This document shows positions 7,312 through 33,492 of a DNA stretch of 64,000 nucleotides, in pieces. A program made the position numbers and the translations under genes. The stretch is taken from positions 115,637 to 179,636 of IMG/VR virus record IMGVR_UViG_3300014204_000115, one strand, 5' to 3'. The notes under the pieces are model-generated. The model saw nothing but the letters and a program-made list of their open reading frames with translations, did not search any database and was not told where the DNA came from. This DNA is from a virus. Its lineage: Duplodnaviria; Heunggongvirae; Uroviricota; Caudoviricetes. Position 1 is the first letter of the stretch; each line of letters begins with the position of its first letter.

Positions 7312-7469
7312 AATTATCCCGCCTAGTTAAAAATCAAAAAACATAAAAATCTAGATTGATTCTTGTAAGTTTTACGTCAATCCCAGATAATTTTAGAAAC
7401 TATTTTAATATTAAAGAACAAATTAATAGTAAATCAACTTATTATAAAAATTATAGGAGAGAAATATCA

Positions 7470-11379: not shown

Positions 11380-12717
11380 ATGACAGATGTTATAATTGAT
11401 AAAAGTGAAGAAATTGTAGAAGACGAGATTTATCAAGAAGAGAATATTTTTTCTGAAGTCAAACCTGAAGATTTAGAACAGAGTTTAAATAATATCAAAA
11501 TTGAATTAACAGAAGAAGATAAAAAGAAATATAATGCAGAAGTACCAGAACCTCCAACAGAAGTAAAAAAGAGAGGCAGAAAACCAAATACGCTTAAAAA
11601 AGATATTCCTACTCCAACAGAAGTAAATTATGAAATGACAGATGAAGAAATTGAATCTGGAATGGATCAGAAGACTAAAGATTTATATATGGAGTTTAAT
11701 AGTTTTCTTGAAGATAAAACAGAAATTACTTCTGATACCGGTATTAAAGATACTATTCCAACAGGAATAGATCTTTTAGATACAATCATGGGAGGGGGAT
11801 TTGCAATAGGCACTATGGGTGTTGCAACTGGAAATCCTGGTTGTGGAAAAAGTATGTTAGCAATTCAGACTATGGGTGCTGCACAGAGAAAATATAATGG
11901 TAATATTATTGCTGCTATGTTAGATTCAGAAGAAGCAACTACTACTATTAGAATGTCAAATCTTGGAGTAAAAAACCCTAAGATTAAACCTTATAATGAT
12001 ATTACAGTTGAAAAGGTTTTTAAATTTTTAGAAGGCATGTGTCTATACAAAGATATGAAAAAAATTATGGATACCCCATCAATAGTAGTTTGGGATTCTG
12101 TTGCAAATACATTAAGTCAGAGAGAAAGAGAAGCAGAAGATATTAATTCAGTAATTGGATATAAGGGAAGATTATTATCTTTATTAATTCCAAAATATGT
12201 ATCTAAATTAGCTATATACAATATTTGCTTAATTGCAATTAATCAGTTAAGAGATGTAATTTCTATTGGCAACTTCGCCCCAGCAAAAGAGTTAAAATTT
12301 ATGAGTCAGGGAAAAACTATGCCCGGTGGTAATAGTTTTAAATTTAATGCATTTCATCTATTAGAAATGAAAGCTAGGGAAACTGCTACTAGAGATAAGT
12401 TTGGGTTTGATGGATATTTTGCAGAAGTTGTTTGTGTAAAAAATAAATTATTTGCTCCTAATATTAAAATTAGTATAGCTGGAAATTTCGTTACTGGGTT
12501 TAATAACTTCTATACAAATTATAGATTCTTGACTGAAAATAAAAGAATGATAACTGGGGCTTGGAATTGGCTTGAAAATCTACCAACAGTTAAAACCCGC
12601 ACAAAAGACGCAGAAGAATTATATAAGACAAATACTTTATTTAAAGAAGCATTTGATAAATCTGTATCAGAAACATTACAAACAGAGATAATTGAAAAGT
12701 ACAATCCTTCTTTATAA
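11380..12717 (+). CDS. RecA-fold ATPase, UvsX/RecA-like recombinase candidate
   Basis: GIDLLDTIMGGGFAIGTMGVATGNPGCGKSMLAIQ parallels RecA G..LD.ALG.GG.P.GRIVEI.GPESSGKTTLAL. Acidic N-terminal extension. A DnaB-type helicase core cannot be fully excluded. Confidence 0.5.
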   Translation: MTDVIIDKSEEIVEDEIYQEENIFSEVKPEDLEQSLNNIKIELTEEDKKKYNAEVPEPPTEVKKRGRKPNTLKKDIPTPTEVNYEMTDEEIESGMDQKTKDLYMEFNSFLEDKTEITSDTGIKDTIPTGIDLLDTIMGGGFAIGTMGVATGNPGCGKSMLAIQTMGAAQRKYNGNIIAAMLDSEEATTTIRMSNLGVKNPKIKPYNDITVEKVFKFLEGMCLYKDMKKIMDTPSIVVWDSVANTLSQREREAEDINSVIGYKGRLLSLLIPKYVSKLAIYNICLIAINQLRDVISIGNFAPAKELKFMSQGKTMPGGNSFKFNAFHLLEMKARETATRDKFGFDGYFAEVVCVKNKLFAPNIKISIAGNFVTGFNNFYTNYRFLTENKRMITGAWNWLENLPTVKTRTKDAEELYKTNTLFKEAFDKSVSETLQTEIIEKYNPSL

Positions 12718-12724
12718 TTTAAAA

Positions 12725-13849
12725 ATGAAAATTAAATTATGTGATTATGGTTGTGGAAAAGAAGCAAGATTTCTTTTAAAGTTTAAAAATTCAGAAAAAT
12801 GGTGCTGTTCAGAAAAATATTCAGCATGTAAATCAAATATTAAAACATGGAATAAAGGTTTGACAAAAGAAACAGATGAACGAGTTAAAAAATATTCAAT
12901 TAATAAAATTGGATTATCTTCATGGAACAAGGGTTTGACAAAAGAAACAGATGAACGAGTTAAAAAAATTAGTTTATCAAATATTGGAAAGAAAATTTCA
13001 TCTAATCATAGATTAAAAATTAGTAAATCTTTAAAGGGAAAAAGTAAAACAGAAGATCATATAAAAAAATTATCTGAATCATTAAAAGGAAAAATTGGAT
13101 GGAATAATGGTTTAACAAAAGAAACTAGTAATTCTTTAATGATAGTTAGTAAAAAACTAAAAGGAAGAATAATAAAACAAGAAACTAAAGAAAAATTAAG
13201 AAAAATAAATCTTGGTAAAAAGTTATCAGAAGAAACTATAATAAAAATTTCTAAAAAAAATAAAGGTAGAAAAAGAACACCTGAACAAATTAAAAATCAT
13301 AGAAATTCTATTAAAGGCAACAAAAATCATAAAATGAATCATTATATAGAAACTTATCCAGATTTTATAAAATTAGAATTATTAGAGGAAGATTCTGAAA
13401 CAAAAGATTTAATAGTAATATGTAGTATTTGTAATTTAAAATTTACTCAAAATAATAGAGAAAAAATTTCTTATAGAGCACAAATGATTATATTAAAAAA
13501 AATGAATCAAGGAATGTTTTATTGCTCAAAAGAATGCAAAGAAAAATTTATTAATAAAAATAAAAATGATTATGAAATATATTCTAGAAAAGTTTGGAAG
13601 AATACTTATCAATCAGTAAAAGAACAAGGTTCTAATATCAAAAATATTGAATTAAGAGGCAGAAAATATAAATATCAGTTAGATCATAAGTATTCTATAA
13701 TAGAGGGTTTTAAAAATAATATAGATCCAAAAATTATTGGTCATTGGAAAAATTTAGAAATAATTTCAGATATTAAAAATACAAGAAAATTAGGAAAATG
13801 TTCTATAACAATACAAGAATTAATACAAGAAATAAATAATATTATATAA
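12725..13849 (+). CDS. freestanding HNH homing endonuclease with tandem NUMOD3 DNA-binding repeats
   Basis: N-terminal CDYGCGKEARF..CCSEKYSAC zinc knuckle. There are at least 6 repeats of W/L-N-K-G-L-T-K-E-T / K-K-L-S-E-E-T-I-I-K-I-S-K-K-N-K-G (NUMOD3 consensus). C-terminal QLDHKYSIIEGF...HWKNLEII is an HNH core. The ATG at 12725 is preferred over the TTG at 12692 in the ORF track. Confidence 0.6.
   Translation: MKIKLCDYGCGKEARFLLKFKNSEKWCCSEKYSACKSNIKTWNKGLTKETDERVKKYSINKIGLSSWNKGLTKETDERVKKISLSNIGKKISSNHRLKISKSLKGKSKTEDHIKKLSESLKGKIGWNNGLTKETSNSLMIVSKKLKGRIIKQETKEKLRKINLGKKLSEETIIKISKKNKGRKRTPEQIKNHRNSIKGNKNHKMNHYIETYPDFIKLELLEEDSETKDLIVICSICNLKFTQNNREKISYRAQMIILKKMNQGMFYCSKECKEKFINKNKNDYEIYSRKVWKNTYQSVKEQGSNIKNIELRGRKYKYQLDHKYSIIEGFKNNIDPKIIGHWKNLEIISDIKNTRKLGKCSITIQELIQEINNII
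12846..12968 (+). repeat. near-perfect direct repeat (about 47 nt unit, period 75 nt) inside the HNH/NUMOD3 gene
   Basis: catggaa(t/c)aa(a/g)ggtttgacaaaagaaacagatgaacgagttaaaaaa occurs at 12846-12892 and 12921-12967. It encodes the duplicated WNKGLTKETDERVKK unit. Confidence 0.8.
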
Positions 13850-13939
13850 GAAACAAACTCAAAGTTCTGATTTCTTAAAGAGCTAGAACAAATATTAAAT
13901 ATGGATTGAAACATCGAATTTTGATAAGGAGATAAACTA

Positions 13940-20789: not shown

Positions 20790-22241
20790 ATGATTAGATT
20801 CAATTTGGCGGATAAAAAATTAGATATTTTTAAAGATGAGAAAGAAAAAATTTTAAGTATTAATTTAATTTCAAGTACAATTACAAATAAATTTTTTATT
20901 GTAACTACATTTATTGAAAATGTTTCTAAAACTTGTCCTGGTTTTGATGAATGGTTTTGTAATTTTTTAGATGAATATACATCTGTAGTTGAAAGATATG
21001 TTGTAATTCAAAAGAACATTCCAATTATTAAAAGTTATGTTGATCAATATTTAAATGTAGCAAATATTGATTATAATCAATTTGTGGATGAAAGTAAAGC
21101 TAAGAAAACAAGTATTTTATTTTCTGCAGAAGAAATAAAAAAAATAATTCAATTATCTTGTTATCTAAAGATTTACTCATTATTTTTTAATAGTGTTGAT
21201 TTAAAATTAGATCAAAGACTTCATAAAAGTGTCTATAATGAATTTGCGGCTGAAGTTTTAAATAGTGAAATAGTAAATAAAATATTTACTATAATTAAAA
21301 CTAAAACATTTAGGTATAATCTTACTGATAAGTATATGTGGGATTATATTAAAATGGTTCAATGTAAATCAATTGATGTTCATATTATTGAAATTTTTAA
21401 TTTTATTATGAACTCAATCCTTATTCTTTGTGAAGAAGATAAAAACCCAATAATTTATTTTGTTAGTGTAGTTCAAGAATCAATTAACTGGTTTTTAAGA
21501 TCTGTATATAAAGGACAAATTGTCTATGACGATACTGTTAGTACTGAAGATATTCATGGTGCTAATATTGATAACTTAAAAACTTACGCCTATAATGATA
21601 CCTTGGGTAGATTAAAAGGAATAGCTTTTGAGCAAATCTATGATAATCTAGAAAGATCTTCAATTTTATTATTTCCATCAAATCAAGAAACAGTTTCAGA
21701 TAAGTCAATCATTGAGTTTCAAAATAGAATTTCAGAAATAGAATTTATTTCCCCTCTTTGTGATTCATTAATTTATCCCGTTTTATCTGTAGTAACATCA
21801 ATACCATATATACATTTCAAAACTTTATCTCCAGATCATGCAATAGTATTATCTGTATATACTCAAAATTTATTGAGAAAAGTATTTAAAATTACAGAAT
21901 ATAAAAATCTATTTTCATTACTAAGTTATTATCCAAAAAAAGAAATAGCAGTAGCAACAACATATAAAGTAAAGGGAATGGAAGATTTGATTAAAGTATC
22001 TCAATCAGTAAATAGTTTCTTTGGATTTAAATCGAAATTATTATTTGCTAATATTTTGGGGTATTTTATTGGAAGAATCTCAAGAGTAAATTTTGTTAAT
22101 ATTTTTGATGGAAATGAATTAACAGGGGTTCCATTGAGTAAAATTGAATCTGAAATGATTCAATTCTATACAATGTTATTTGGTGGAAAGTTAGATGAAG
22201 AATTTAATAAAATGAAAAAATTAATTTATCAGGACTTTTAA
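20790..22241 (+). CDS. hypothetical protein (483 aa)
   Basis: Long ORF after a 85-nt AT-rich spacer; RBS AGAAAGGGTA. Confidence 0.5.
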   Translation: MIRFNLADKKLDIFKDEKEKILSINLISSTITNKFFIVTTFIENVSKTCPGFDEWFCNFLDEYTSVVERYVVIQKNIPIIKSYVDQYLNVANIDYNQFVDESKAKKTSILFSAEEIKKIIQLSCYLKIYSLFFNSVDLKLDQRLHKSVYNEFAAEVLNSEIVNKIFTIIKTKTFRYNLTDKYMWDYIKMVQCKSIDVHIIEIFNFIMNSILILCEEDKNPIIYFVSVVQESINWFLRSVYKGQIVYDDTVSTEDIHGANIDNLKTYAYNDTLGRLKGIAFEQIYDNLERSSILLFPSNQETVSDKSIIEFQNRISEIEFISPLCDSLIYPVLSVVTSIPYIHFKTLSPDHAIVLSVYTQNLLRKVFKITEYKNLFSLLSYYPKKEIAVATTYKVKGMEDLIKVSQSVNSFFGFKSKLLFANILGYFIGRISRVNFVNIFDGNELTGVPLSKIESEMIQFYTMLFGGKLDEEFNKMKKLIYQDF

Positions 22242-22337
22242 ATATGAAAAAATAGAGTCTGATAAATTTAAAAAATTAAAGTTAAAAATGAAATAATCAA
22301 AGATATGTTATGGTTAGAATTAGAAGGGAAAAAATAA

Positions 22338-22478
22338 ATGATTAAATTTTGTCCAAATTGTGGAGAAGTTTTATCTAAAAATGTTAAATATGCAGAAGGT
22401 GTAAAATCTTGTAATACTTGTGAAGGAATATTTTTTATATTACAAACTAGCAAATCAATTCAACAAGAGGATAAATAA
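22338..22478 (+). CDS. small zinc-ribbon protein (46 aa), tentative
   Basis: MIKFCPNCGEV...CNTCEG (CxxC..CxxC). RBS GAAGGGAAAAAATAAATG. Below the ORF-track size cutoff. Confidence 0.4.
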   Translation: MIKFCPNCGEVLSKNVKYAEGVKSCNTCEGIFFILQTSKSIQQEDK

Positions 22479-22483
22479 AATAG

Positions 22484-22663
22484 ATGTCAGAAGAAATTTT
22501 AAAGATTGTTGTAAAAAAAGCACATGAAGTATTAGATGAGTTTATCTCAGAATGTATTGGTGAAGATGGAAAACCAAAAGCTCCATCTTATAAATCTCTT
22601 ATGAAAGTAAGAGGTTATTTACCAGAATCTTATAAAAATTCTATAATAAAGAAAAAGAGTTAA
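22484..22663 (+). CDS. small protein (59 aa), tentative
   Basis: ATG 5 nt after the previous stop; continuous ORF. Confidence 0.3.
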   Translation: MSEEILKIVVKKAHEVLDEFISECIGEDGKPKAPSYKSLMKVRGYLPESYKNSIIKKKS

Positions 22664-22734
22664 TGGAGATAAAATGCAGTTATTTACTCAGATACTACAA
22701 AGAGATGCATTAGAAGATGAAATAATTAGTAAGA

Positions 22735-23166
22735 ATGAGTAATTTTATGAGAAAATTAGAAGAATTTGCAGATTCAGAATCATATGATTTATTTTATAAT
22801 TTAATTGGAAAAGAATTAGTTTCAACAAGAAGTAGTGGACCAATAAGATTAAGAGAAGTCATAATACCAAAATGTTATGATATAAAATTTTTAAAGAAAC
22901 ATGGTAGAATGATAAGACTGGTTCTTTCTATTAAATATTCAGATAAGGAAGTAGTTTTTGGAAATGACTATCATGAAAGTTATAATGAACATCTTGATCT
23001 TCCATTTTCTTTAATAGAATCATGGTCTCTAAAAAAGATGAAAAATTGGGCAATTAAAAGGACAAAACAAGTAAGAGAAAAAGAGATTGAACGTTTACAA
23101 GATGAAATTATTCAAATTAATAAGAAATTAGAAGAACTTAAAAAAGCAGGAGATACTAAGAAATGA
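22735..23166 (+). CDS. hypothetical protein (143 aa), coiled-coil C-terminus
   Basis: ORF in tiling. Confidence 0.5.
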   Translation: MSNFMRKLEEFADSESYDLFYNLIGKELVSTRSSGPIRLREVIIPKCYDIKFLKKHGRMIRLVLSIKYSDKEVVFGNDYHESYNEHLDLPFSLIESWSLKKMKNWAIKRTKQVREKEIERLQDEIIQINKKLEELKKAGDTKK

Positions 23167-23399
23167 AAAAATATTTTTTATTTTTAATAATTATTCTTTT
23201 ATTTTGTTTAATAAGTTGTGATAATCATTATAGAAGATCCCTTTCATTCAATCTACCAAAAGAAGCAAAAATAATAAAAGAAGATCTATCTGTACCTGCA
23301 ATTTATTTTAAAATTGGAAAAAGATATTATATAAAAATTTTTAGTGGAAATGGATACTCAATTTTTGAAATAGATAAAGAGGTTATTAATGGACAATAA
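23163..23399 (+). CDS. small lipoprotein
   Basis: Signal peptide MKKYFLFLIIILLFCLISC with lipobox L-I-S-C. Confidence 0.5.
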   Translation: MKKYFLFLIIILLFCLISCDNHYRRSLSFNLPKEAKIIKEDLSVPAIYFKIGKRYYIKIFSGNGYSIFEIDKEVINGQ

Positions 23400-23829
23400 T
23401 ATAAAACAAGTAATTGTTATTAGAAAAGATCTTCATATGAGACAAGGAAAGTCATGTGCAAGTGCAGCTCATGCAAGTATGAAAGTTCTTCTTGATGTAT
23501 TAAAAGAAATACATTCTGTACCAAGAGGTGTCATTTTTGGTATGGAAATAACTCCAATAAATAATTTTCAAGAAAAAAATACAAGACAATTAGATTGTTT
23601 AGAAAAATGGATTAAAGGAACATTTACTAAAATTGTTGTTTATGTAAAAAGCGAAGAAGAACTTCTTGAAGTATTTAATAGAGCTAAAGATGAAGGGATT
23701 TTTTGCAGCCTGATTGAAGATGTTGGAAAAACTGAATTTAATGGTGTTCCAACCAAAACTTGTTGCGCAATAGGACCAGATGAATCAGAAATAATTGATA
23801 AAATAACTGGTAAATTACCTCTATTATAA
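23389..23829 (+). CDS. peptidyl-tRNA hydrolase, PTH2 family
   Basis: KQVIVIRKDLHMRQGKSCASAAHAS and C-terminal CCAIGPDESEIIDKITGKLPLL closely match the archaeal/eukaryotic Pth2 motifs (V.VR.DL.MGKGK.AAQ..HA; AIGP....IDKITG.LKLL). Confidence 0.8.
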   Translation: MDNNIKQVIVIRKDLHMRQGKSCASAAHASMKVLLDVLKEIHSVPRGVIFGMEITPINNFQEKNTRQLDCLEKWIKGTFTKIVVYVKSEEELLEVFNRAKDEGIFCSLIEDVGKTEFNGVPTKTCCAIGPDESEIIDKITGKLPLL

Positions 23830-23839
23830 GGATTTAAAA

Positions 23840-24094
23840 ATGAAAAAAATTATTCTTATAATTTTATTAGTATTAACTTTTTTATTAGTTTCATGTGATT
23901 TTTCACCTGTTGATCTTCCATATAAGTGTTATCAAACTGTTGAAAAAGAATTTCCTATAAATTCAAGAATAATGAATATACCAAGAGGTAATTATATTTT
24001 TATAGTAAAAACACCTGAAGGAAAAATTTGGTATGCAGAAACAATGGAAAGAAATTCTTCTAAAATAACTTATAAAGTTCAATTATTTGATTAA
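23840..24094 (+). CDS. small lipoprotein
   Basis: Signal peptide MKKIILIILLVLTFLLVSC with lipobox L-V-S-C. Confidence 0.5.
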   Translation: MKKIILIILLVLTFLLVSCDFSPVDLPYKCYQTVEKEFPINSRIMNIPRGNYIFIVKTPEGKIWYAETMERNSSKITYKVQLFD

Positions 24095-24098
24095 AAAA

Positions 24099-24140
24099 TG
24101 GCACTGAGATTTTCTTCTTAATCTCAGTGCCATTTTTTTG
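24099..24140 (+). terminator. Rho-independent terminator
   Basis: Perfect 12-bp stem tggcactgagat / atctcagtgcca with 9-nt loop, followed by TTTTTTT. Confidence 0.75.
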
Positions 24141-24217
24141 TTTATTATTTGTATAAAAGATAGAACAAAATATAAATTAGTAAGTTTATTTTTTGTTTAA
24201 AAGTGGAGGAAATTAAA

Positions 24218-24670
24218 ATGAAAAAGAAAGTATTTAAAGAAGACTTTCAAAGATTAGAAGAATTCATTCAAAAAATTAATAATATCATAACACCATTTTC
24301 CTTTCGTGATGAACTTAAAAGCGTAATGGATAAAGAAACTAGGATCAGAATGTCAGAGAAATACCCTAAATGTTATTTACCAGTTCGAATGGGTAATAAA
24401 GATATTCCATTTCTGCCTCTATGTAACAGAAATGGCGCAACTGATAAAAATATGATTTCTTTTTCTATGAAATTAGCTAATAGATTATTAGGAAGAGAAG
24501 ACGTTGATAGGGGAATGTTAGAAATAACTTTAAAGAAATTATCTAGAATGAATAATACATATTCAAAAGATATTCCAACTCCTCCTGGTCCAGCTTCACA
24601 AAAAGCTAATGTAACCAAGTCATTAATTTTACTAAAAAAGAATCTTGACAAAATAAAGAATGGTGAATAA
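24218..24670 (+). CDS. hypothetical protein immediately upstream of RNAP beta' (possible RNAP accessory factor)
   Basis: ATG at 24218 after GGAGGA (the ORF track starts at a GTG at 24203). Ends 1 nt before the beta' start. Confidence 0.45.
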   Translation: MKKKVFKEDFQRLEEFIQKINNIITPFSFRDELKSVMDKETRIRMSEKYPKCYLPVRMGNKDIPFLPLCNRNGATDKNMISFSMKLANRLLGREDVDRGMLEITLKKLSRMNNTYSKDIPTPPGPASQKANVTKSLILLKKNLDKIKNGE

Positions 24671-27600
24671 ATGTCCCTAAAATTTCTAGATTTAAATAAT
24701 TTTACAAGAAATTTAAAACCAGTAACAAGTACACAGACTCATACAAGAACAGATGAGTTTCATCCTCAAGGATTATTTTCCGAAATGATTTTTGGAGTAG
24801 AAGGTAGTTTAGATAGAAAGAAAACATTTTCATATATTGATTTAAATACATTTGTAATTCACCCTACTGCATATAGAATTCTTATCAGATTGGATAGAAA
24901 AATAGAAAAGATGTTTTCTACTGAAAAATCATTTAGATTGACAGAAAATGGTACATTAATAGAAGATGATAACGGAGTAACAGGAATTTTTGAATTTATT
25001 AAACTATTTCCAAAACTAATATTAAGAGGTGAATCTGAAGATAGAGATAAATTTATTAAAGTATTAAAAGATTCATATCAAGATCAAATATTATTTATAA
25101 ATAAAATTCCAATTATGCCTCCAGAACAAAGACCAATTTTTAAAGATAGCAGCGGAAGATACACACAAGATAAATTTAATGATTTTTACTTAACTATTTT
25201 AAGAAGATCAATACAACTTAAAACATTTGGGGCTAAAGGTACAATGTATGATCTATTAAATTGGGGATTACAAAGATCAGTAAATGATTTAGATGAATAC
25301 ACTAGAACAAAAATTGGTAAAAAATTTGGTTTAATTAGATCTCAGCTTCTAGGAAAAAGAACTGATTTCTCTGGAAGAGCTGTTATTACATCAGGTCCAG
25401 ATATTCCTGCAGATAAAATTGGAATACCTTTTAGATTAGCTATAACTTTATTTGAACCGTTTATAATTTATACACTTTTATATTCTGGAAAAATAAATAA
25501 AGATACTTTAGAAAAAGAAATAAAGAATTTTACAAAAACAGATTTATCCACAAATAGTATTGCAATTGTTTTAAAAAGTTTAAAATCTGGAGATGTTGTA
25601 CCTAAAAATTTATATGATATTTTCTTTAAGGCTGCAGTTTTGGCGTCTGAAAATAGAGTTGTTTTAGCAAAAAGAGATCCTGTTTTACATGCTGAATCAG
25701 TTCGAGCATTTTATCCTATCATAGTTCCTGGTAATACTATACAATTATCAGCTCTAGTTACAGGAGGATTTAACGCTGACTTTGATGGGGATACAATGGC
25801 AGTATTTCATCCTTTAACTATTGAATCACAAGATGAAGCAAAAAAAAGAATGATGATGGCTAGATCCTCTTCTTCATTTACAAGTATTACTTTTGAATTA
25901 AGTAAAGAAATGAGTGTTGGATTATATTTAATTACAAAAGATATTAAGGAATTTAAACCTCCTATTAGTGTTTCTAAAGAAGATTTAGAAAAAGCAATAG
26001 ATCCTTATACTCCAGTTATTTATAAAAAACAAACAACAACAATGGGAAAAGCAATTTTTAATAATTGTTTTCCTTCAGATTTTAGATTTATAAATGATTT
26101 GGTAACTAAAAAAATTGCTAATAAATTAATTTTTGAAGTTATTGATAAATATGGAGATGAAATTGGAAGACAAGTTGCATCTAATTTAAAAAATGTTGGT
26201 TTTAGATTCGCTAGTTTATTGGCACCTTCTTTAAATTTAAACGAAATTACAATTCCTCCTGAGATTTATGAATTAAAGAAAAATATGGATAAAGCTACAA
26301 CAGAAGAAGCAATTGAAATAATGGATAAAATGCGAAAAATAATGATTGAACATTTAAAAGATACAGGTTTATATAATTTAGTTGAATCAGGAAGTACTAA
26401 AGGATGGGATCAACCAATTCAAATTTTAGTTGCAAAAGGAATCATGGTAGATCCGACTGGAAAAATTCTTCCTCCTATTAAAGGTTCATTATCTGATGGT
26501 TTAACCACAACTGAATATTTTAATGCTGCTGGAGGAAGTAGAGCTGGAATCATTGATAGAGTTATCAATACTGCAGATACAGGATATACAGCTAGAAAAT
26601 TAGCTTATCTTTTAAACTCAGTAGAATTAGATTGGGTGTTAAAAGATTGTGGTACACAATTAACCTTAGATATAAAATTAGATCCAGATATTATTAGTAG
26701 ATTAAAAGGAAGATATATAGTAAAAAGAGGAAAATTAGAACTATTTGAACATTCTGGTTCAAAGTCTGGAGATTTAATTCATCTGAGAAGTCCAATTTTT
26801 TGTAAATCTTTAAAAATTTGTCATACTTGTTATGGAAAACTTTTAGAAATTCATAAAAGTCCTTATGTTGGAATTATTGCAGCATCAAATATTGGAGAAA
26901 GAAATACACAGCTTATTATGAGATCTTTCCATTCAACTGCAATTAAGATTATAACAAGAGATATATTAAAAGATATTTTTGATAATGATCCATTAGTTAA
27001 ATCCGATCAATTAAAAATAAAATTAAAACAGATGGAAAATAATTTGTATTGCACACAGGATTGTTCAATGACTATAGATTTAGATAGTTATGAATTAGGT
27101 GATGATATTACTATAAATGAAGAAGAAAATATAGTTGAAGCAAATGGTTTAATTTCTAGAATTGAATTTTCAGATTTATCATTTGATATAGTTCTTGATT
27201 ATCCAGTAATTATTAAATATGATAAAATAATTAAATCTAAAGAATTTATTAAAGTATCATTTAGAAAAGACGATGAAATTATTGAAGCTCCATTACAAAG
27301 ACAAGATTTAAAAGAAATTGTTTTATATGTCGAAAGATTAATTTCAGGTAAAGAAAAATTTAAAAGCATAGATCATTTATTTTTAAAATTTTACAAAATT
27401 TATAGCGACATTTCAAGTATGGATTTAGTTCATATGGAAGTATTAATTAGTCAGATTTTAAGAGATAAAAATAATCCAGTTTTCCCATCAAGAGTTGGAA
27501 AAGATCCAATGCATCCTGTATTAAGAAATATTAAAAAGAATGTTTTTAATAACGGAGGTTTGCTTCAAGGATTAGCTTTTGAAAATACATCAGCTGCTAT

Positions 27601-27700
27601 TAATGCAGGTTTAATAGCAACTACTGAATTAGAACCATCTATTTTAGAAAGATTATTAACAGGAACTTTAGTTGAGAGAAAAGATAAGGATAAGGATTAA
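24671..27700 (+). CDS. rpoC: DNA-directed RNA polymerase beta'-like subunit (1009 aa)
   Basis: Catalytic motif GGFNADFDGDTMAV. RAVITSGPDIPADKIGIPFRLAITLFEPF matches the beta' rudder/lid region. CHTCYGKL...GIIAASNIGERNTQLIMRSFH matches the beta' trigger-loop region. No N-terminal zinc-ribbon cysteines. Confidence 0.85.
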   Translation: MSLKFLDLNNFTRNLKPVTSTQTHTRTDEFHPQGLFSEMIFGVEGSLDRKKTFSYIDLNTFVIHPTAYRILIRLDRKIEKMFSTEKSFRLTENGTLIEDDNGVTGIFEFIKLFPKLILRGESEDRDKFIKVLKDSYQDQILFINKIPIMPPEQRPIFKDSSGRYTQDKFNDFYLTILRRSIQLKTFGAKGTMYDLLNWGLQRSVNDLDEYTRTKIGKKFGLIRSQLLGKRTDFSGRAVITSGPDIPADKIGIPFRLAITLFEPFIIYTLLYSGKINKDTLEKEIKNFTKTDLSTNSIAIVLKSLKSGDVVPKNLYDIFFKAAVLASENRVVLAKRDPVLHAESVRAFYPIIVPGNTIQLSALVTGGFNADFDGDTMAVFHPLTIESQDEAKKRMMMARSSSSFTSITFELSKEMSVGLYLITKDIKEFKPPISVSKEDLEKAIDPYTPVIYKKQTTTMGKAIFNNCFPSDFRFINDLVTKKIANKLIFEVIDKYGDEIGRQVASNLKNVGFRFASLLAPSLNLNEITIPPEIYELKKNMDKATTEEAIEIMDKMRKIMIEHLKDTGLYNLVESGSTKGWDQPIQILVAKGIMVDPTGKILPPIKGSLSDGLTTTEYFNAAGGSRAGIIDRVINTADTGYTARKLAYLLNSVELDWVLKDCGTQLTLDIKLDPDIISRLKGRYIVKRGKLELFEHSGSKSGDLIHLRSPIFCKSLKICHTCYGKLLEIHKSPYVGIIAASNIGERNTQLIMRSFHSTAIKIITRDILKDIFDNDPLVKSDQLKIKLKQMENNLYCTQDCSMTIDLDSYELGDDITINEEENIVEANGLISRIEFSDLSFDIVLDYPVIIKYDKIIKSKEFIKVSFRKDDEIIEAPLQRQDLKEIVLYVERLISGKEKFKSIDHLFLKFYKIYSDISSMDLVHMEVLISQILRDKNNPVFPSRVGKDPMHPVLRNIKKNVFNNGGLLQGLAFENTSAAINAGLIATTELEPSILERLLTGTLVERKDKDKD

Positions 27701-27702
27701 TT

Positions 27703-30700
27703 ATGATACAATTTAAATCACTAAGACAATATACTCATGTTGTTAATGGTATCAGATTTCCAAATAAACCCGGTCAAAATTTTGTTGTTACTTATTTTTC
27801 AGAAAATTCTAGTTTACTTGAAGATTATTCATTTTTAAATTTAAAATTAATAGATCTAAAAATTAATATAGTTCCATTTACAACAATTCCTAGAACAAGA
27901 TTAACACCTACTCTATTAAAATCATTTAAAAAACTAGGTTTAAATTCTTATCAATTAACTAATCAAGTACCAAGTGGAAGAAATGTAATATATGATTTAT
28001 CTCAATTTTTAAATGCAATTGATTATACATATAATCCATCAAATTATAGACAAAGATTAAATATGTTTATAAAAAATATTACTAATAGATCTTTTTCCGA
28101 ATTTAATAATTTTGAGAAAGTACTATTATATTCTATTAATTTAACAAAAGATAAGTTAAATAATTTTATTGACAGAAAATTTTTTCCAATAGTACAACAA
28201 TTAAAGGATGATTCATTTAGTTTTGATCATTTAATTTTATGTTTAATCACGCCATCAGGACCAAGATATAGATTATTAGTTAAAAATAGATCCTTTAAGT
28301 TTGAAAGAATAGTAACAATATTAAAAACAATTAAATTAGGTAATACTACAGAAGAAGTTAATGACATAGATACAGAAGAAGAAAATAATGCAGAAAAACT
28401 TGCAGATGAAGTAGTAAATAATATTCAAAATAATATTCTACCTAATAATAAAGATAAAGTAAAAGATGCAATTAAAAATTATCTTTCTAAAGATAATATT
28501 ACAAAAGAAAAAGTTATATCTAAAGAAGTATCTCCAAAAAGTATGAAAAAAATTGGAGTAGCATCTATTTTATATAAAGTAACTGGAGATTTAGATAAAT
28601 CTAAAAAAATTACAAATAATATTTCTGATAAGAATTTTAATAATGCTCTAAAAACTATAGATAAAAGATATTCTGATCAAATGTTACAAACTCAAAAACC
28701 AATTAATACATCAACTGATAATTTTGTTAAATCTTATGATACACCAAAAGCTGTAATTAAATCTCCATATCATTTATTTCAAAAAAGGTTGATAGACTTT
28801 GATATAAATCTCCAGAAAGATTTAGCTAATTCATTTAAAGTTCTTGAGACTAAAGAACTTCCTTTAAAAGTTGGTGAAATACAAATTGTAAATAGAAAAC
28901 AAAAAAATGGAGAAATTGAAAAATCTGATACTAATATAATTAAAACAGTATTGACAGATAAGGATGGTAATAATCATAACATTCAAATTGAAATTCCTAG
29001 AATTGATCCAAAGACTGGAACATTTAGAGTTAATGGTCAGAAAAAATGTTTAATCAATCAGATTGTATTATGTCCAATAACTTTTCCTAAAAAATTTGAA
29101 TCAAGATTTGAAAGTTCATATTCTATTTTTAGAATTAGAAGTAAAAGAACAAGAAATACAAAATATTTAGAAATTTTTATTGCTAACTCTTGGTTACCAT
29201 TATCTATATTATTATTTTATAGTTTTGGATTTGAAGAAACTCTTTCACAATATGGTATAAAATATAGAATAAGTTCAGATAAACCAAATAAAACTGACAC
29301 CTTTTATTCTAAAATTGATGGATCTAATTTTATTTATTTTGATGGTGTAAATAATGAATTAAAGGCAGAACTAATTAATTCATTTATAAATACAAAAGTT
29401 GACACATTAAAAATTAAAAAACCATTTGCTACTCAAGAATATTTCAATGATATAATTATTAGATTAACAGGAAGAGTAAATTCAACATTTTTAATTCTAT
29501 CAAATTTAGAAAATATTGTTGATCCTGTAGCAAAACAAGTTTTAATTAATATGCATCAACCATCTGTTTTAAAAGATATTATTTATTATATGTCTTTTAA
29601 AGTAATAACTGGATTTGTTCAAGATAGAAATGATATTTTAAACCAAAGAATTAGAGAATCAGAAGTATTAGTTCATTTAATACAAAAACAAATTTTAGCA
29701 GCTTATACGATTTATAAACAACAAATTTTAGCTGGTAATAAAAATGCAAAATTTGAAATTAATCAATCAAAATTATTAAGCGAATTTATTAGATCAGAAA
29801 TTGTTGCAAATATGGAGTATGCAAACCCAATAGAAGAAATGGCAGTTATGACAAGAATTTCACCTGTTGGAAAAAGTATCGGTGGTATTCCTGATAAAAG
29901 AGCAATTCAAAATGAAGCAAGAAATATACACCCATCTTATTTTGGAAATATTGATCCATTAGATACACCTGAAGGAGAAATGATTGGTATTTCACAACAA
30001 TTAGCTATCGGAGCTTCTATTAGTTCAGCAAGAGGTTTATTCTCAAAGAAACCATTTTTGGATAGTGAGAAATCTGGAATTTTATCAACATCATCCAATA
30101 TGATTCCATTTATAGAAAATAATGATGGTGCAAGAATTATTATGGCAACAAATCAAGCTAAACAGACGCTCCCATTAAAAAATCCAGAACCACCAGTTGT
30201 TAGATCTGGTTATGAATCATTATTAACAAATATATTATCTAATAACTTTATTAAAAAATCTCCATGCAATGGGAAAGTTTTAAAAATTACAGATGAGTCA
30301 ATTTTTATAATGTGTAGAGATAAAAGCATCAGAGAAATTTCTATAATTCCTGTTCATTTAAAATCAGGAATTGGAAAAGATACATTGAGTATTTTTAAAG
30401 TAATAGTAATACCAGGACAAATAGTTTTAGAAAATCAAATTATTGCAGAAGGAAGTTCTATTTCCAATGGAACAATTTCTCTAGGAAGAACTCTTTGTAC
30501 TGCAGTTATGCCATATAGAGGATATAATTTTGAAGATGGTATTGTAATCAACGAAAATTTAATAAATCAAGATAAACTAACATCTATTCATGGAATTATA
30601 GATGAAGTTTTAATTTCTGAAAATGATAGAGTTTTAGAAATTGCAAAAATTGGAACCTATCTTGAAAAAGGAAAACCTATTTTAAGAAAAACTATAGGTG

Positions 30701-31815
30701 AAATTGAACAACTTTTAGGATTTTCTGAAGAAGAAGGCGAAGAAGTAATGGGTCAACAATTTATTAAAAAAAGTCCAGGTGGAAGAATTGTTGACATTGA
30801 TGTATTTTCAAATTTAGATAATAATAAATTTCCAATTTTAAAAGATTTAATTGAAAGAACAAGAAGAAGATTTGGAACAACTCCGACTGAAAAGTTTTCT
30901 GTCAAAGGAAATTTAATTCAAGGTATTTTAATTAGATTTAAAATTGAACAAGAGTTAAGAATTAATCTGGGTGATAAATTAGCTAATAGATATGGAGCAA
31001 AAGGAATTATATCTTTAGTTGAACCAAACGAAATGATGCCCAGAACACCTTGGGGAGATTATGTTGATATCGTAGTAAATCCTGTTGGAATAATTGGAAG
31101 AAGTAATATTGGTCAGTTATATGAATTATATTGTGGTTTAATTTCTAGAGAGATTGGACAAAGGATAAGAAATTCTAAAAGTAAAAATCAAATTTTAACA
31201 TTAATGAAGAGCGTATATACCATTCTTGATGCATCAAAAAATAAAGAATTTTCAACAAGATTAATAGCAAATATAGCTGCTTTATCAGAAAGAGAATTTT
31301 TAATTTTAGTTAATCAAATAAAAACTACTGGATTTTCTCCAATTATAATTCCGCCATTTCAAGCTCCAAAACAAGATCAGATTAAAATGGCGTTAACTAT
31401 ACTAGGATTAAAACCGGGATATAATTTATTTCTTCCATATTATGGAACAAAAACTAAAAGTGAAGTTCCGGTTGGTTATATGTATTTTTCTGCATTGGAG
31501 CATAAAGCAGATGCTAAAGTATATGGAAGAAGTACAGGACCAGTAACAGGAAAAACTCTTCAACCTACATCAGGAAAAAGTAGAGAAGGTGGACAGAGAT
31601 TAGGAGAAGCTGATACATACTCATTAATTTCATATAATTGTCCAACTTTATTATCAGAATTGATGGGTCCATTAAGCGATGATTTATCTACAAAAAATGA
31701 AATCATTTCTGAAATTATACAAACAGGATCTGCAAAGTATAGAGATTCTAAAATATCTCCTGCTAAAGATCTGTTAAATTCTTATTTTGTCTCATTAATT
31801 TTGGAGAGAACATAA
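27703..31815 (+). CDS. rpoB: DNA-directed RNA polymerase beta-like subunit (1370 aa)
   Basis: YFGNIDPLDTPEGEMIGISQQLAIGAS, NRYGAKGIISLVEPNEMMPRT..VDIVVNPVGIIGRSNIGQLYE and GGQRLGEADTYSLISY correspond to conserved beta regions (..PIETPEG.NIGL.., .RHGNKGV.S.I.P.EDMP, GGQRFGEMEVWAL). Confidence 0.85.
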   Translation: MIQFKSLRQYTHVVNGIRFPNKPGQNFVVTYFSENSSLLEDYSFLNLKLIDLKINIVPFTTIPRTRLTPTLLKSFKKLGLNSYQLTNQVPSGRNVIYDLSQFLNAIDYTYNPSNYRQRLNMFIKNITNRSFSEFNNFEKVLLYSINLTKDKLNNFIDRKFFPIVQQLKDDSFSFDHLILCLITPSGPRYRLLVKNRSFKFERIVTILKTIKLGNTTEEVNDIDTEEENNAEKLADEVVNNIQNNILPNNKDKVKDAIKNYLSKDNITKEKVISKEVSPKSMKKIGVASILYKVTGDLDKSKKITNNISDKNFNNALKTIDKRYSDQMLQTQKPINTSTDNFVKSYDTPKAVIKSPYHLFQKRLIDFDINLQKDLANSFKVLETKELPLKVGEIQIVNRKQKNGEIEKSDTNIIKTVLTDKDGNNHNIQIEIPRIDPKTGTFRVNGQKKCLINQIVLCPITFPKKFESRFESSYSIFRIRSKRTRNTKYLEIFIANSWLPLSILLFYSFGFEETLSQYGIKYRISSDKPNKTDTFYSKIDGSNFIYFDGVNNELKAELINSFINTKVDTLKIKKPFATQEYFNDIIIRLTGRVNSTFLILSNLENIVDPVAKQVLINMHQPSVLKDIIYYMSFKVITGFVQDRNDILNQRIRESEVLVHLIQKQILAAYTIYKQQILAGNKNAKFEINQSKLLSEFIRSEIVANMEYANPIEEMAVMTRISPVGKSIGGIPDKRAIQNEARNIHPSYFGNIDPLDTPEGEMIGISQQLAIGASISSARGLFSKKPFLDSEKSGILSTSSNMIPFIENNDGARIIMATNQAKQTLPLKNPEPPVVRSGYESLLTNILSNNFIKKSPCNGKVLKITDESIFIMCRDKSIREISIIPVHLKSGIGKDTLSIFKVIVIPGQIVLENQIIAEGSSISNGTISLGRTLCTAVMPYRGYNFEDGIVINENLINQDKLTSIHGIIDEVLISENDRVLEIAKIGTYLEKGKPILRKTIGEIEQLLGFSEEEGEEVMGQQFIKKSPGGRIVDIDVFSNLDNNKFPILKDLIERTRRRFGTTPTEKFSVKGNLIQGILIRFKIEQELRINLGDKLANRYGAKGIISLVEPNEMMPRTPWGDYVDIVVNPVGIIGRSNIGQLYELYCGLISREIGQRIRNSKSKNQILTLMKSVYTILDASKNKEFSTRLIANIAALSEREFLILVNQIKTTGFSPIIIPPFQAPKQDQIKMALTILGLKPGYNLFLPYYGTKTKSEVPVGYMYFSALEHKADAKVYGRSTGPVTGKTLQPTSGKSREGGQRLGEADTYSLISYNCPTLLSELMGPLSDDLSTKNEIISEIIQTGSAKYRDSKISPAKDLLNSYFVSLILERT

Positions 31816-32904: not shown

Positions 32905-33492
32905 ATGAGTAGTTATGAAAAAATATTAATTGGTGAATCTATACCTTTAATGGAAGTCGATGATGAAGAATCTGATTTAAATTATGATCTGATTTCAAAT
33001 GCTGAGATTGATGCAGATTTTTACGATATATTAAAATACTTTGGAACAGATGAATTTAAACCACTATTTTTAAATCTATATAATGAGATTATATCATTAG
33101 ATTTTGAAAGACAAAGGGAGTTGTGTGAAAAATTAAACTCTAAAATTACACAAATTTTTGAATTTGAATTTTCTCCAACATTATCTTTTGACAATCAAGA
33201 TGATATTAGTAATTTTTTAAAATTTATTGAATTTTTAGAATATGATTATATAGATTTTTTATCAACATTAATTTCAGGTTTAGATTTTGAGTTACTAAAA
33301 AAAGATTTAGATAAATTTTTAACTTTATATTGGAATACAATAATTAAAAGAGTTAATGAGTTTAAAGAAAACGAGTTGATTTTAAAATTTCTTAGAACAA
33401 ATAATAAAGAGAAATTATATGAGTTTATACGATTAAGGTTGGAAAGAGATAAAATGTTAGTAATATTAAAATCATTAGAAAGGGAATTTTAA
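32905..33492 (+). CDS. hypothetical acidic protein (195 aa)
   Basis: RBS AAAGGGAACTAAAAATG. Confidence 0.5.
   Translation: MSSYEKILIGESIPLMEVDDEESDLNYDLISNAEIDADFYDILKYFGTDEFKPLFLNLYNEIISLDFERQRELCEKLNSKITQIFEFEFSPTLSFDNQDDISNFLKFIEFLEYDYIDFLSTLISGLDFELLKKDLDKFLTLYWNTIIKRVNEFKENELILKFLRTNNKEKLYEFIRLRLERDKMLVILKSLEREF

What the first reader, a model, noticed from the sequence alone, without database searches (positions are those of the whole stretch)
23163..24140. Phage-encoded PTH2-type peptidyl-tRNA hydrolase sandwiched between two small lipoproteins, ending in a strong terminator
23389-23829 matches the PTH2 family nearly motif-for-motif, including the C-terminal AIGP...IDKITGKLPLL, with one internal insertion. 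PTH2 is the archaeal/eukaryotic-type enzyme and is uncommon in bacterial or phage contexts. It is co-transcribed with two lipobox-bearing small proteins (LISC, LVSC) and followed by a perfect hairpin terminator at 24099-24140. A phage Pth could recycle peptidyl-tRNA released when host defences or phage takeover stall translation, or remove acyl groups from tRNA-like substrates. The lipoprotein pair suggests a superinfection-exclusion or envelope function expressed from the same transcript.
Basis: partly seen in the sequence, partly recalled or inferred. Interest (0 to 1): 0.6.

Follow-up and report, generated by a model that had tools for sequence, protein, structure and literature searches.

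The report
Phage Pth2 hydrolase in accessory island
An uncultured large phage carries an intact archaeal/eukaryotic-type peptidyl-tRNA hydrolase (Pth2) flanked by two small lipoprotein genes and closed by a real terminator, but phage Pth2 genes are already well documented, so this is an ordinary new member of a known kind.

Summary
Three tightly packed + strand ORFs (23163-23399, 23389-23829, 23840-24094) are followed by the strongest canonical intrinsic terminator found on the + strand of the 64-kb window. The middle ORF is a genuine PTH2-family protein (Pfam 108 bits; AlphaFold model TM about 0.9 to archaeal Pth2). K21, H28, D111 and T115 are invariant in its clade, and the 'insertion' is a variable, disordered loop.

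The interpretation overstates the rarity. PTH2 is annotated in 48 GenBank phage records, occurs on at least 486 IMG/VR contigs and in at least 210 bacterial species genomes, and was discussed for phages in 2013, 2018 and 2021. In related phages the gene sits in a hypervariable accessory slot between a conserved 483-aa protein and the phage RNA-polymerase operon. In other phages it often lies beside tRNA genes (38 of 80 loci), which supports a tRNA-recycling role.

Lipoprotein 1 has no detected relatives. Lipoprotein 2 belongs to an undescribed family of phage lipoproteins about 80 aa long. That family is not Cor-like. It abuts Pth2 in three contigs from two lineages and occurs without Pth2 in five other contexts. 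The link is suggestive, not obligate.

Verdict: a new member of a known kind, low-to-moderate interest.

The parts
22338..22478 (+). 46-aa Cys4 zinc-ribbon-like small ORF, first gene of the variable island after the conserved 483-aa protein
   Evidence: ORF. Weak Zn_ribbon_TFIIB hit, E=3e-4, below the cutoff. Called as a gene on the public contig.
22484..22663 (+). 59-aa ORF of the island, no family
   Evidence: no Pfam hit.
22735..23166 (+). 143-aa ORF (139 aa if started at 22747), no family. Its stop overlaps the start of lipoprotein 1 (ATGA).
23163..23399 (+). Lipoprotein 1: 78 aa, signal peptide plus lipobox LISC, Asp at +2. No detected relatives.
   Evidence: Sequence read. Self-hit only among 5.8e9 proteins in the word-indexed search. 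No relative in any fetched locus. Unrelated to lipoprotein 2 beyond the signal peptide.
23389..23829 (+). PTH2-type peptidyl-tRNA hydrolase, 146 aa. Catalytic-site residues K21, D111 and T115 (plus H28) are conserved. A variable loop of about 20-25 aa lies between helices alpha1 and alpha2.
   Evidence: Pfam PF01981, 108 bits. TIGR00283, 102 bits, above the cutoff. PHROG 1866. PDB sequence hits. Clade alignment A1. AlphaFold pLDDT 88.4. Foldseek top 14 hits are all Pth2 or Bit1, with TM 0.81-0.90 normalised to the target for the crystal structures.
23840..24094 (+). Lipoprotein 2: 84 aa, lipobox LVSC, Asp at +2. Member of an undescribed family of phage lipoproteins about 75-100 aa long (mature domain: one helix plus a 4-stranded antiparallel sheet).
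   Evidence: About 30 small relatives at 35-53% identity. No Pfam family. Model pLDDT 90.5. No PDB counterpart. One uncharacterised phage protein in BFVD.
24093..24145 (+). Intrinsic terminator: 19-bp stem, 8-nt loop, T-run. Symmetric (A-run upstream), so formally bidirectional.
   Evidence: The same position in L170 and L169 carries hairpins with different stem sequences.
24145..24177 (+). Conserved intergenic motif TTATTTGTATAAAAGATAGAACAAAATATAAAT, a candidate promoter or regulatory element for the downstream 150-aa gene and RNAP operon (inferred)
   Evidence: Near-invariant in three related phages. Not recurrent above chance within the window.
24218..24670 (+). Conserved 150-aa protein that precedes the RNAP genes in all lineage members; marks the right border of the variable island
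   Evidence: 82% identical in L170 and 63% in L169. Synteny.
20790..22241 (+). Conserved 483-aa protein, left border of the variable island
   Evidence: 81-86% identical in L002 and L170. No PHROG family and no GenBank phage hit.
24671..31815 (+). Unsplit phage RNA polymerase beta' (1009 aa, NADFDGD motif) and beta (1370 aa) genes; context only
   Evidence: PHROG RNAP families. At most 28% identity to any deposited phage.

Best explanation
23389-23829 encodes a catalytically competent Pth2-type peptidyl-tRNA hydrolase. It is carried as an accessory (non-core) gene by an uncultured low-GC (25%) phage of about 180 kb that encodes its own RNA polymerase. The enzyme cleaves the ester bond of peptidyl-tRNA, and by extension N-blocked aminoacyl-tRNA, that has dropped off ribosomes. 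This returns free tRNA to the pool and keeps phage translation running when host Pth1 capacity becomes limiting, for example under heavy phage translation, host mRNA decay or damage to tRNA. The gene sits in a hypervariable cargo slot between a conserved 483-aa protein and the phage RNAP operon. It is probably transcribed together with its neighbours and is closed off by a conserved intrinsic terminator. The two lipoproteins are independent moron-type cargo destined for the host envelope. Lipoprotein 2 belongs to a mobile family of small phage lipoproteins that has travelled with Pth2 more than once, and lipoprotein 1 is lineage-specific. Shown here: family membership, fold, conservation of active-site residues, island variability, terminator conservation, and tRNA-gene proximity in other phages. 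Inferred: enzymatic activity, physiological role, co-transcription and lipidation.
For: Family and fold. K21, H28, D111 and T115 are invariant in 37 clade members, and the insertion falls in a stretch that varies in length across the clade and is predicted disordered in this protein. Accessory status: lineage relatives with 81-86% identical flanking genes carry different cargo in the same slot. These are HNH/NUMOD3 + Pth2 + a Cys-rich ORF + tRNA-Arg/His in L002, NUMOD3 + Pth2 + a 54-aa ORF on the P0006 contig, Pth2 + lipoprotein in L169, and Apyc1 + lipoprotein without Pth2 in L170. tRNA link: 38 of 80 IMG/VR Pth2 loci have tRNA genes within 5 kb, often 15-18 of them, against 6 of 80 bacterial loci. 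L172 has Pth2 inside an array of 10 tRNAs next to an RNA-ligase-like gene. The literature reports the same for cluster C mycobacteriophages (PMC5966550) and proposes ribosome rescue and tRNA recycling for jumbo-phage PTH2 (PMC7824862). No conserved protein partner: the most widespread neighbour family occurs in only 7 of 80 loci. Terminator.
Against: No tRNA gene lies in the 64-kb window, so the tRNA association is borrowed from other phages. The tRNA control is rough, because bacterial loci are not a matched background. No experimental study of any phage Pth2 turned up in the literature searches. The identity of the catalytic residues (K18, D86, T90 of S. solfataricus Pth2) rests on my recollection of Fromant et al. 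2005, which was not in the held library. NCBIfam equivalog NF003314 is just missed (111 bits against 126) because the insertion splits the match. The host is unknown, so I could not check whether host Pth1 would be limiting.
Confidence: 0.7

Rival explanations
1. Dedicated counter-defence: the phage Pth2 exists mainly to undo host abortive-infection attacks on charged tRNA. For example, it could deacylate the N-acetyl-aminoacyl-tRNA made by GNAT toxins of the TacT/AtaT type, or clear peptidyl-tRNA fragments left after anticodon-nuclease cleavage. The slot it occupies would then be an anti-defence island.
For: The same slot in the sister phage L170 holds a full-length Apyc1 (anti-Pycsar) family protein (100 bits, cutoff 50). 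Another Apyc1-family gene directly abuts Pth2 in L001. The slot is hypervariable between phages that are 81-86% identical in the flanking genes, as anti-defence islands typically are. Bacterial Pth1 is known to reverse TacT acetylation of glycyl-tRNA (PMC9241777). Iyer et al. link jumbo-phage PTH2 to rescue after tRNA cleavage (PMC7824862).
Against: Apyc1-like genes are absent from all 80 IMG/VR Pth2 loci, with a positive control that worked, so that association is anecdotal. There are no PADLOC hits. No paper reporting anti-defence activity of a phage Pth was found. The same clade is chromosomal in many bacteria, which suggests a general housekeeping-type activity. This reading is not exclusive of the main explanation, since the chemistry is the same and only the selective reason differs.
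Confidence: 0.2
2. Pth2 and lipoprotein 2 form a functional two-gene module. For example, the lipoprotein could sense or alter the envelope while Pth2 compensates for a translational consequence, or the two could act on a common pathway.
For: A member of the lipoprotein-2 family lies immediately downstream of Pth2, overlapping it by 4 nt or within 10 nt, in three contigs from two lineages that share no other detectable gene: window, L169 and L172.
Against: The lipoprotein family occurs without Pth2 in five other contexts (L170, L173, L174/175, L176/177, L178/179). An HMM of the family finds no member in the 80 IMG/VR and 80 bacterial Pth2 loci. One protein is cytoplasmic and the other is exported, with no obvious shared substrate. 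Transfer of a small two-gene cargo block explains the adjacency equally well.
Confidence: 0.07
3. The protein keeps the PTH2 fold but has a different substrate or a non-enzymatic role, for example as a deacylase of another acyl-RNA or as a binding protein, with the clade-specific loop providing the new specificity.
For: The alpha1-alpha2 loop is clade-specific and highly variable. The protein misses the strict NCBIfam equivalog cutoff. Eukaryotic PTRH2/Bit1 has moonlighting roles (established knowledge).
Against: All the residues implicated in catalysis, and the surrounding motifs (D-x-G-x-T-E-F, A-I-G-P), are invariant across the clade. The loop is predicted disordered rather than a new domain. 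TIGR00283 and Pfam cutoffs are passed comfortably.
Confidence: 0.05

Closest known systems
Archaeal/eukaryotic Pth2 (Pfam PF01981; structures 2ZV3 M. jannaschii, 1XTY S. solfataricus, 1WN2 P. horikoshii, 3ERJ A. fulgidus, 1Q7S human Bit1/PTRH2)
   Same: Full-length profile match. Same order of secondary-structure elements (beta-alpha-alpha-beta-alpha-beta-beta-alpha). TM 0.81-0.90 to the crystal structures. 33-38% identity to the archaeal structures (26-28% to human Bit1). K, D and T of the active site and the AIGP and ITG.L.LL motifs are conserved.
   Different: 146 aa instead of about 115-120. An extra, disordered loop of about 20-25 aa lies between alpha1 and alpha2. It belongs to a separate bacterial/phage clade with the motif RKDLxMRxGK.
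Phage-encoded PTH2 already annotated (PHROG 1866; Xanthomonas phages XacN1 and Xoo-sp13, Mycobacterium phage Myrna and cluster C phages, Sinorhizobium phiM12 group, Agrobacterium Atu_ph07, Klebsiella RaK2, Salicola SCTP-2, metagenomic huge phages)
   Same: Same family, 31-48% identity. A single-domain stand-alone gene in a large phage genome. Annotated as peptidyl-tRNA hydrolase. Discussed in PMC3622015, PMC5966550 and PMC7824862.
   Different: This phage has no cultured relative: no megablast hit, no hit for the 483-aa protein, and RNAP at most 28% identical. Here the gene lies next to the RNAP operon rather than a tRNA array, and it is flanked by lipoprotein genes.
Bacterial chromosomal PTH2 homologues (Chitinophaga, Phocaeicola, Kofleriaceae/Haliangiales and other Myxococcota, CPR bacteria)
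   Same: Same clade, 42-53% identity, with the same variable loop region.
   Different: Cellular rather than viral context, with tRNA genes rarely nearby (6 of 80 loci).
Small phage lipoproteins with known roles: Cor (HK022/phi80/N15), Llp (T5), o-spanins (Rz1)
   Same: Similar size (about 60-65 mature residues), an N-terminal lipobox, and encoded as moron-like cargo.
   Different: Profile comparison of the lipoprotein-2 family with HK022 Cor aligns only the 19-residue signal peptide. Spanin hits are at E=0.35 or occur in single family members. There is no C-terminal TM segment, no Pro-rich mature region and no lysis gene nearby. Llp was not tested.
Apyc1 anti-Pycsar MBL phosphodiesterase (Pfam PF23023)
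   Same: Occupies the same genomic slot in the sister phage L170 and abuts Pth2 in L001.
   Different: Not present in this window. It is an unrelated fold and activity, and it is not generally linked to Pth2 (0 of 80 loci).

Membership tests
PTH2 peptidyl-tRNA hydrolase (PF01981 / TIGR00283) | Profile match above the curated cutoff over the full domain | tested here: met
   PF01981: 108.3 bits against 23, model positions 1-115 of 115. TIGR00283: 102.4 bits against 82.
PTH2 peptidyl-tRNA hydrolase (NCBIfam equivalog NF003314) | Score at or above the 126-bit equivalog cutoff | tested here: not met
   111.2 bits. The match is split in two by the internal loop. This affects only the strict 'equivalog' label, not family membership.
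PTH2 peptidyl-tRNA hydrolase | Compact alpha/beta fold: a mixed beta-sheet flanked by four helices | tested here: met
   AlphaFold2 pLDDT 88.4, pTM 0.83. The Foldseek top 14 PDB hits are exclusively Pth2 or Bit1, with E down to 3e-11 and rmsd 2.1-3.4 A for the crystal structures.
PTH2 peptidyl-tRNA hydrolase | Active-site residues equivalent to S. solfataricus K18, D86 and T90 (the residue list is from my recollection of Fromant et al. 2005, not verified in the held library) | tested here: met
   K21, D111 and T115 align to K18, D86 and T90 of 1XTY and are invariant in 37 clade members, as is H28.
PTH2 peptidyl-tRNA hydrolase | Hydrolysis of the peptidyl-tRNA ester bond; complementation of pth(ts) | not testable with these tools
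   Needs biochemistry or genetics.
Bacterial lipoprotein (Lgt/LspA substrates) | N-terminal basic residues, a hydrophobic stretch, and a lipobox [LVI][ASTVI][GAS]C within about 30 residues | tested here: met
   MKK + 13 hydrophobic residues + LISC (lipoprotein 1), and MKK + 13 hydrophobic residues + LVSC (lipoprotein 2). 27 of the 28 aligned relatives of lipoprotein 2 carry a Cys in the lipobox column (nearly invariant C19). Actual lipidation cannot be tested here.
Cor superinfection-exclusion lipoprotein (PHROG 1119) | Homology of the mature domain to Cor | tested here: not met
   hhalign of family alignment A2 against HK022 Cor aligns only 19 signal-peptide columns. The window protein itself has no PHROG 1119 hit.
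Spanin (o-spanin or u-spanin) | Profile match beyond the signal peptide; a partner i-spanin or C-terminal TM segment; a lysis-cassette context | tested here: not met
   NF037951 at E=0.35 over residues 1-21 only. Single A2 members hit Rz-like PHROGs weakly. There is no C-terminal hydrophobic segment in either sequence. Neighbours are not lysis genes.
Rho-independent (intrinsic) terminator | Stable GC-containing hairpin immediately followed by a U-tract, downstream of a stop codon | tested here: met
   19-bp stem with 6 GC pairs, dG -27.2, z -11.7, T7 tract, starting at the stop codon of 23840-24094. Hairpin plus T-run at the homologous position in L170 (dG -23.9, z -8.3) and L169 (dG -15.5, z -3.9), with different stem sequences. 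Termination activity itself was not tested.
Known anti-phage defence or anti-defence families (PADLOC) | Profile match | tested here: not met
   No hit for any of the five local proteins.

The most novel reading that the evidence does not exclude
Pth2 and the family of ~80-aa lipoproteins form a mobile two-gene cargo block that moves between unrelated large phages and lands in anti-defence islands (the same slot that holds Apyc1 in a sister phage). The phage Pth2 would act as a counter-defence enzyme that reverses host attacks on charged tRNA, such as N-acetylation by GNAT toxins or the debris left by anticodon nucleases. The lipoprotein would be a new class of envelope-acting exclusion factor.
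Probability: 0.12. Interest if true: 0.6.

Novelty: new member of a known kind. Interest (0 to 1): 0.25.

Why it matters
On its own it matters little. It adds one more phage lineage, uncultured, with 25% GC and its own unsplit RNA polymerase, to the long list of large phages that carry a Pth2-type hydrolase. It also confirms that the enzyme looks fully functional.

Three by-products are worth more:
- Phage Pth2 sits next to tRNA genes in about half of the viral loci examined. This is a simple argument, across many loci, that the enzyme belongs to the phage tRNA-maintenance toolkit.
- In this lineage the gene occupies a well-delimited hypervariable slot that also hosts an anti-Pycsar Apyc1 gene in a sister phage. 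That makes the slot a place to look for new counter-defence genes.
- Lipoprotein 2 defines an undescribed, confidently folded family of small phage lipoproteins with no solved structural counterpart.

No phage Pth2 appears to have been tested experimentally, so a simple complementation or anti-defence assay would still be informative.

Tried and rejected
1. Cor-like superinfection exclusion for lipoprotein 2. Weak PHROG 1119 hits in 5 of 29 family members turned out to be signal-peptide similarity only. Rejected.
2. Spanin identity. Only signal-peptide-level hits and no lysis context. Rejected.
3. 'Both lipoproteins are orphans.' This was my own interim conclusion from the word-indexed searches. 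The full HMMER scan overturned it for lipoprotein 2. It stands for lipoprotein 1 only within the limits of the less sensitive search.
4. 'Lipoproteins never neighbour Pth2 elsewhere.' A regex scan found 0 of 144 adjacent ORFs with a lipobox in IMG/VR loci. That holds for those loci and was confirmed with an HMM. Looking up family members directly then revealed two further Pth2-lipoprotein pairs.
5. A general Pth2-Apyc1 association. 0 of 80 loci, with a positive control. Rejected as a general rule.
6. Any conserved protein partner of phage Pth2. None is shared by more than 7 of 80 loci.
7. Hits of lipoprotein 2 to large beta-propeller or RCC1-like repeat proteins. I judged these to be motif-level resemblance to a beta-hairpin, not homology.
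8. A cultured relative or host. No megablast hit, no hit for the 483-aa protein, and RNAP at most 28% identical. The Fusobacterium phage JD-Fnp4 lead gave only 27% identity over 55% of beta', so the host stays unknown.
9. Recurrence of the conserved post-terminator motif as a phage promoter consensus. Not above chance in the window.
10. Rfam families and tRNAs in the window. None found.
11. Literature confirmation of the Pth2 catalytic residues. Not found in the held papers, so this rests on my own knowledge.
12. afdb50 fold search. The library was unavailable.
13. The RNA-ligase query in the neighbour script was empty, so RNA-ligase proximity in the 80 IMG/VR loci was not tested.
Full report
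**1. What is in the sequence**

The region 23163-24140 holds three + strand ORFs:
- 23163-23399: 78 aa
- 23389-23829: 146 aa
- 23840-24094: 84 aa

They overlap, or are separated by at most 10 nt. Both flanking ORFs start with MKK, a hydrophobic stretch of about 13 residues and a canonical lipobox (LISC, LVSC), followed by Asp at +2. A scan of all ORFs finds that these two are the only small ORFs in the 64 kb with a clean lipobox. It also flags the 288-aa lipoprotein at 36105 and one poorly hydrophobic match at 48964-49299. Beyond the signal peptide the two proteins are unrelated to each other.

Directly after the third stop codon there is a 19-bp hairpin with an 8-nt loop and a T-run (24093-24145). 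Its dG is -27.2 kcal/mol and z = -11.7. My own scan of the whole window shows no other canonical + strand terminator that comes close.

**2. The middle gene is a genuine Pth2**

Profile and sequence matches:
- Pfam PF01981 matches end to end (108 bits, cutoff 23).
- TIGR00283 is passed (102 bits against 82).
- The strict NCBIfam equivalog NF003314 is narrowly missed (111 against 126), because the match is split by an internal insertion.
- Six solved archaeal and human Pth2 proteins are hit directly.

An AlphaFold2 model built on 37 clade members is confident (pLDDT 88.4, pTM 0.83). Its 14 significant PDB neighbours are all Pth2 or Bit1, with TM 0.81-0.90 normalised to the target for the crystal structures.

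K21, D111 and T115 align with K18, D86 and T90 of the S. solfataricus enzyme. That residue list is my recollection of Fromant et al. 2005, and I could not find it in the held papers. Together with H28, these residues are invariant across the clade alignment.

The 'insertion' lies between helix alpha1 and alpha2, at roughly residues 40-63. In this stretch clade members differ in length by 0-30 residues. The model gives residues 43-61 as coil, with pLDDT below 50 for 46-57. It is a variable loop and not an added domain.

**3. How unusual is it?**

Not very.
- tblastn finds the family in 48 GenBank phage records, mostly large or jumbo phages such as XacN1, Xoo-sp13, Myrna and relatives, the phiM12 group, Atu_ph07, RaK2, SCTP-2 and metagenomic huge phages. 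Many are already annotated 'peptidyl-tRNA hydrolase'.
- PHROG 1866 covers the family.
- At least 486 IMG/VR contigs encode a relative.
- At least 210 species-representative bacterial genomes carry one, including isolate Chitinophaga and Phocaeicola chromosomes and many Myxococcota.
- More than 3,500 proteins match in the large protein collection.

The literature already covers the point. RaK2 ORF188 was noted as Pth2 in 2013 (PMC3622015). A PTH2-like gene is one of four genes shared by about 96% of cluster C mycobacteriophage tRNA arrays (PMC5966550). Iyer et al. [quoted passage not shown] They note that it is the archaeo-eukaryotic type and propose a role in ribosome rescue after tRNA cleavage (PMC7824862). 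I found no experimental study of a phage Pth2.

**4. Genomic setting**

The window is one-stranded and 25.4% GC. It encodes:
- a ribonucleotide reductase (RNR) with an HNH insert
- a UvsX-like recombinase
- split topoisomerase II
- SbcCD
- a helicase
- a radical-SAM protein
- baseplate-hub-like proteins
- unsplit RNAP beta' and beta

The exact Pth2 protein is on a 179,636-bp public contig. No cultured phage is close.

Lineage relatives from metagenomes share the order baseplate-hub, ~250 aa, ~484-aa protein, [variable slot], ~150-aa protein, RNAP beta', beta. Flanking genes are 63-86% identical. The slot contents differ:

| Contig | Contents of the variable slot |
|---|---|
| Window | three small ORFs + lipoprotein 1 + Pth2 + lipoprotein 2 |
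| L169 | Pth2 + lipoprotein-2 relative |
| P0006 contig | NUMOD3-like ORF + Pth2 + 54-aa ORF |
| L002 | HNH/NUMOD3 ORF + Pth2 + Cys-rich ORF + tRNA-Arg and tRNA-His |
| L170 (sister phage from the same samples) | Apyc1-family protein (100 bits, cutoff 50) + lipoprotein-2 relative, no Pth2 |

Pth2 is therefore frequent but dispensable cargo of a hypervariable island.

The terminator that closes the island is conserved in position in L170 and L169, with quite different stem sequences (dG -23.9 and -15.5). This is good comparative evidence that it works. It is followed by a near-invariant motif, TTATTT.TATAAAA..TAGAACAAA.TATAAAT, which I read as a candidate promoter for the RNAP operon. That motif does not recur above chance in the window.

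**5. Clues to function**

Across 80 IMG/VR Pth2 loci no protein family recurs next to the gene (maximum 7 of 80 loci). tRNA genes do recur. 38 of 80 loci have tRNAs within 5 kb, often arrays of 15-18, against 6 of 80 bacterial loci. In L172 the gene lies inside an array of 10 tRNAs next to an RNA-ligase-like gene.

Together with the intact active site, this supports the plain reading. The enzyme recycles tRNA from peptidyl-tRNA, or N-blocked aminoacyl-tRNA, to sustain phage translation.

Whether the selective driver is general translational load or host defences that target tRNA cannot be decided here. The Apyc1 neighbour in two contigs hints at the latter. However, Apyc1-like genes are absent from all 80 IMG/VR loci, and PADLOC gives nothing. 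The window itself has no tRNA gene and no Rfam match.

**6. The lipoproteins**

Word-indexed searches found only self-hits for both.

A full HMMER scan with mature lipoprotein 2 recovered about 30 proteins of 71-103 aa at 35-53% identity over the whole mature domain. The lipobox Cys is nearly invariant among the 28 I aligned, and they share a conserved core (C..QSV.KEFP...IP..YKFIVK..DGKIWYVETMN...IS.K..LF). The same scan also hit beta-propeller repeat proteins, which I regard as motif-level resemblance.

The family has no Pfam entry. Its model is confident (pLDDT 90.5): a signal helix, one helix and a four-stranded antiparallel sheet. It has no significant PDB neighbour. Its only significant viral neighbour is one uncharacterised protein. 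Weak hits to the Cor PHROG are signal-peptide similarity only.

Of eight genomic contexts examined, three have the lipoprotein immediately downstream of Pth2:
- the window
- L169, from the same lineage
- L172, which has 37.5% GC and shares no other detectable gene with the window

Five contexts lack Pth2:
- L170, next to Apyc1
- L173, with a release factor 3.5 kb away
- L174/175, with T4-like rIIA/rIIB
- L176/177, with S21, Cpn10 and DnaB
- L178/179, which looks bacterial

The pairing has arisen or been transferred at least twice. That is suggestive but fits co-transfer of small cargo as well as it fits a functional link. In the sister phage the lipoprotein is only 46% identical while flanking genes are 82-86% identical. 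That indicates replacement or fast evolution, as expected for envelope-interacting morons.

Lipoprotein 1 has no relative in any fetched locus. A full HMMER search for it could not be run.

**7. Verdict**

The claim of rarity and the implied novelty are not: phage Pth2 is a known, repeatedly published feature of large phages. I file this as a new member of a known kind.

Three modest additions came out of the analysis:
- the hypervariable island upstream of the RNAP operon
- the undescribed small-lipoprotein family, with its recurrent but non-obligate adjacency to Pth2
- the conserved terminator and motif boundary

Interest: 0.25.

Noticed in passing
window 24145-24177 (also L170 3166-3200, L169 about 770-806): Directly after the terminator lies a near-invariant A/T-rich motif, TTATTT.TATAAAA..TAGAACAAA.TATAAAT. 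It is conserved in three related phages whose terminator stems have diverged completely. It may be the promoter of the 150-aa gene and RNAP beta'/beta operon. Copies with 2 mismatches that retain TAGAACAAAT occur at 13884-13900 (intergenic) and 33393-33409. Overall recurrence is not above chance.
   Followed up: partly
window 22242-24094, between the conserved genes at 20790-22241 and 24218-24670: This is a hypervariable cargo slot. Phages whose flanking genes are 63-86% identical carry different gene sets here: Pth2, Apyc1 anti-Pycsar homologue, HNH/NUMOD3 endonucleases, a Cys-rich ORF, tRNA-Arg/His, small lipoproteins. It is a natural place to look for new counter-defence genes.
   Followed up: partly
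window 7356-10718: The ribonucleotide reductase large subunit is 1120 aa. HNH-endonuclease profile hits at residues about 422-477 lie between the N-terminal (73-267) and C-terminal (746-1093) RNR segments. This is probably an intein or inserted homing endonuclease.
   Followed up: no
window 24671-31815: Full-length, unsplit RNA polymerase beta' (1009 aa, NADFDGD) and beta (1370 aa) are encoded back to back. They are only 22-28% identical to any deposited phage RNAP (YerA41, Cobetia Carin-5, Rhizobium RHph_Y65). This indicates a deep, uncultured lineage of RNAP-encoding phages.
   Followed up: partly
window 36105-36971: A third, larger lipoprotein (288 aa, lipobox VAGC) belongs to the conserved PHROG 200 'lipoprotein' family (E=3.5e-64). 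This contrasts with the poorly conserved small lipoproteins beside Pth2.
   Followed up: no
L088-L167 (IMG/VR Pth2 loci); L172 1084-6407: Phage Pth2 genes lie within 5 kb of tRNA genes in 38 of 80 viral loci, with up to 18 tRNAs, against 6 of 80 bacterial loci. In L172 Pth2 and the lipoprotein sit inside an array of 10 tRNAs beside an RNA-ligase-like gene.
   Followed up: partly
L170 2081-2860 and L001 2940-3761: Full-length Apyc1 (anti-Pycsar) family MBL proteins (100 and 72 bits, cutoff 50) occupy the same slot in a sister phage and lie directly upstream of Pth2 in an unrelated contig.
   Followed up: partly
window 62601-62655: A second hairpin (GGGTGAGTA...TACTCACCC, about -17.5 kcal/mol) is followed by an interrupted T-rich run in an intergenic gap. 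It is probably another + strand terminator. My scan missed it on the + strand and picked it up only on the - strand.
   Followed up: no
window 12692-13849, 38283-39632; L002 3223-4014 and 5345-5860; L169 1298-2194: There are many HNH/NUMOD3-type homing-endonuclease-like ORFs in this phage lineage, several of them bordering the Pth2 slot. They may drive the turnover of its cargo.
   Followed up: no
L173 5076-5549; L176 385-651: Phages carrying the lipoprotein-2 family also encode other translation-related genes nearby: a class-I release factor (PCRF/RF-1 domains) and ribosomal protein S21.
   Followed up: no
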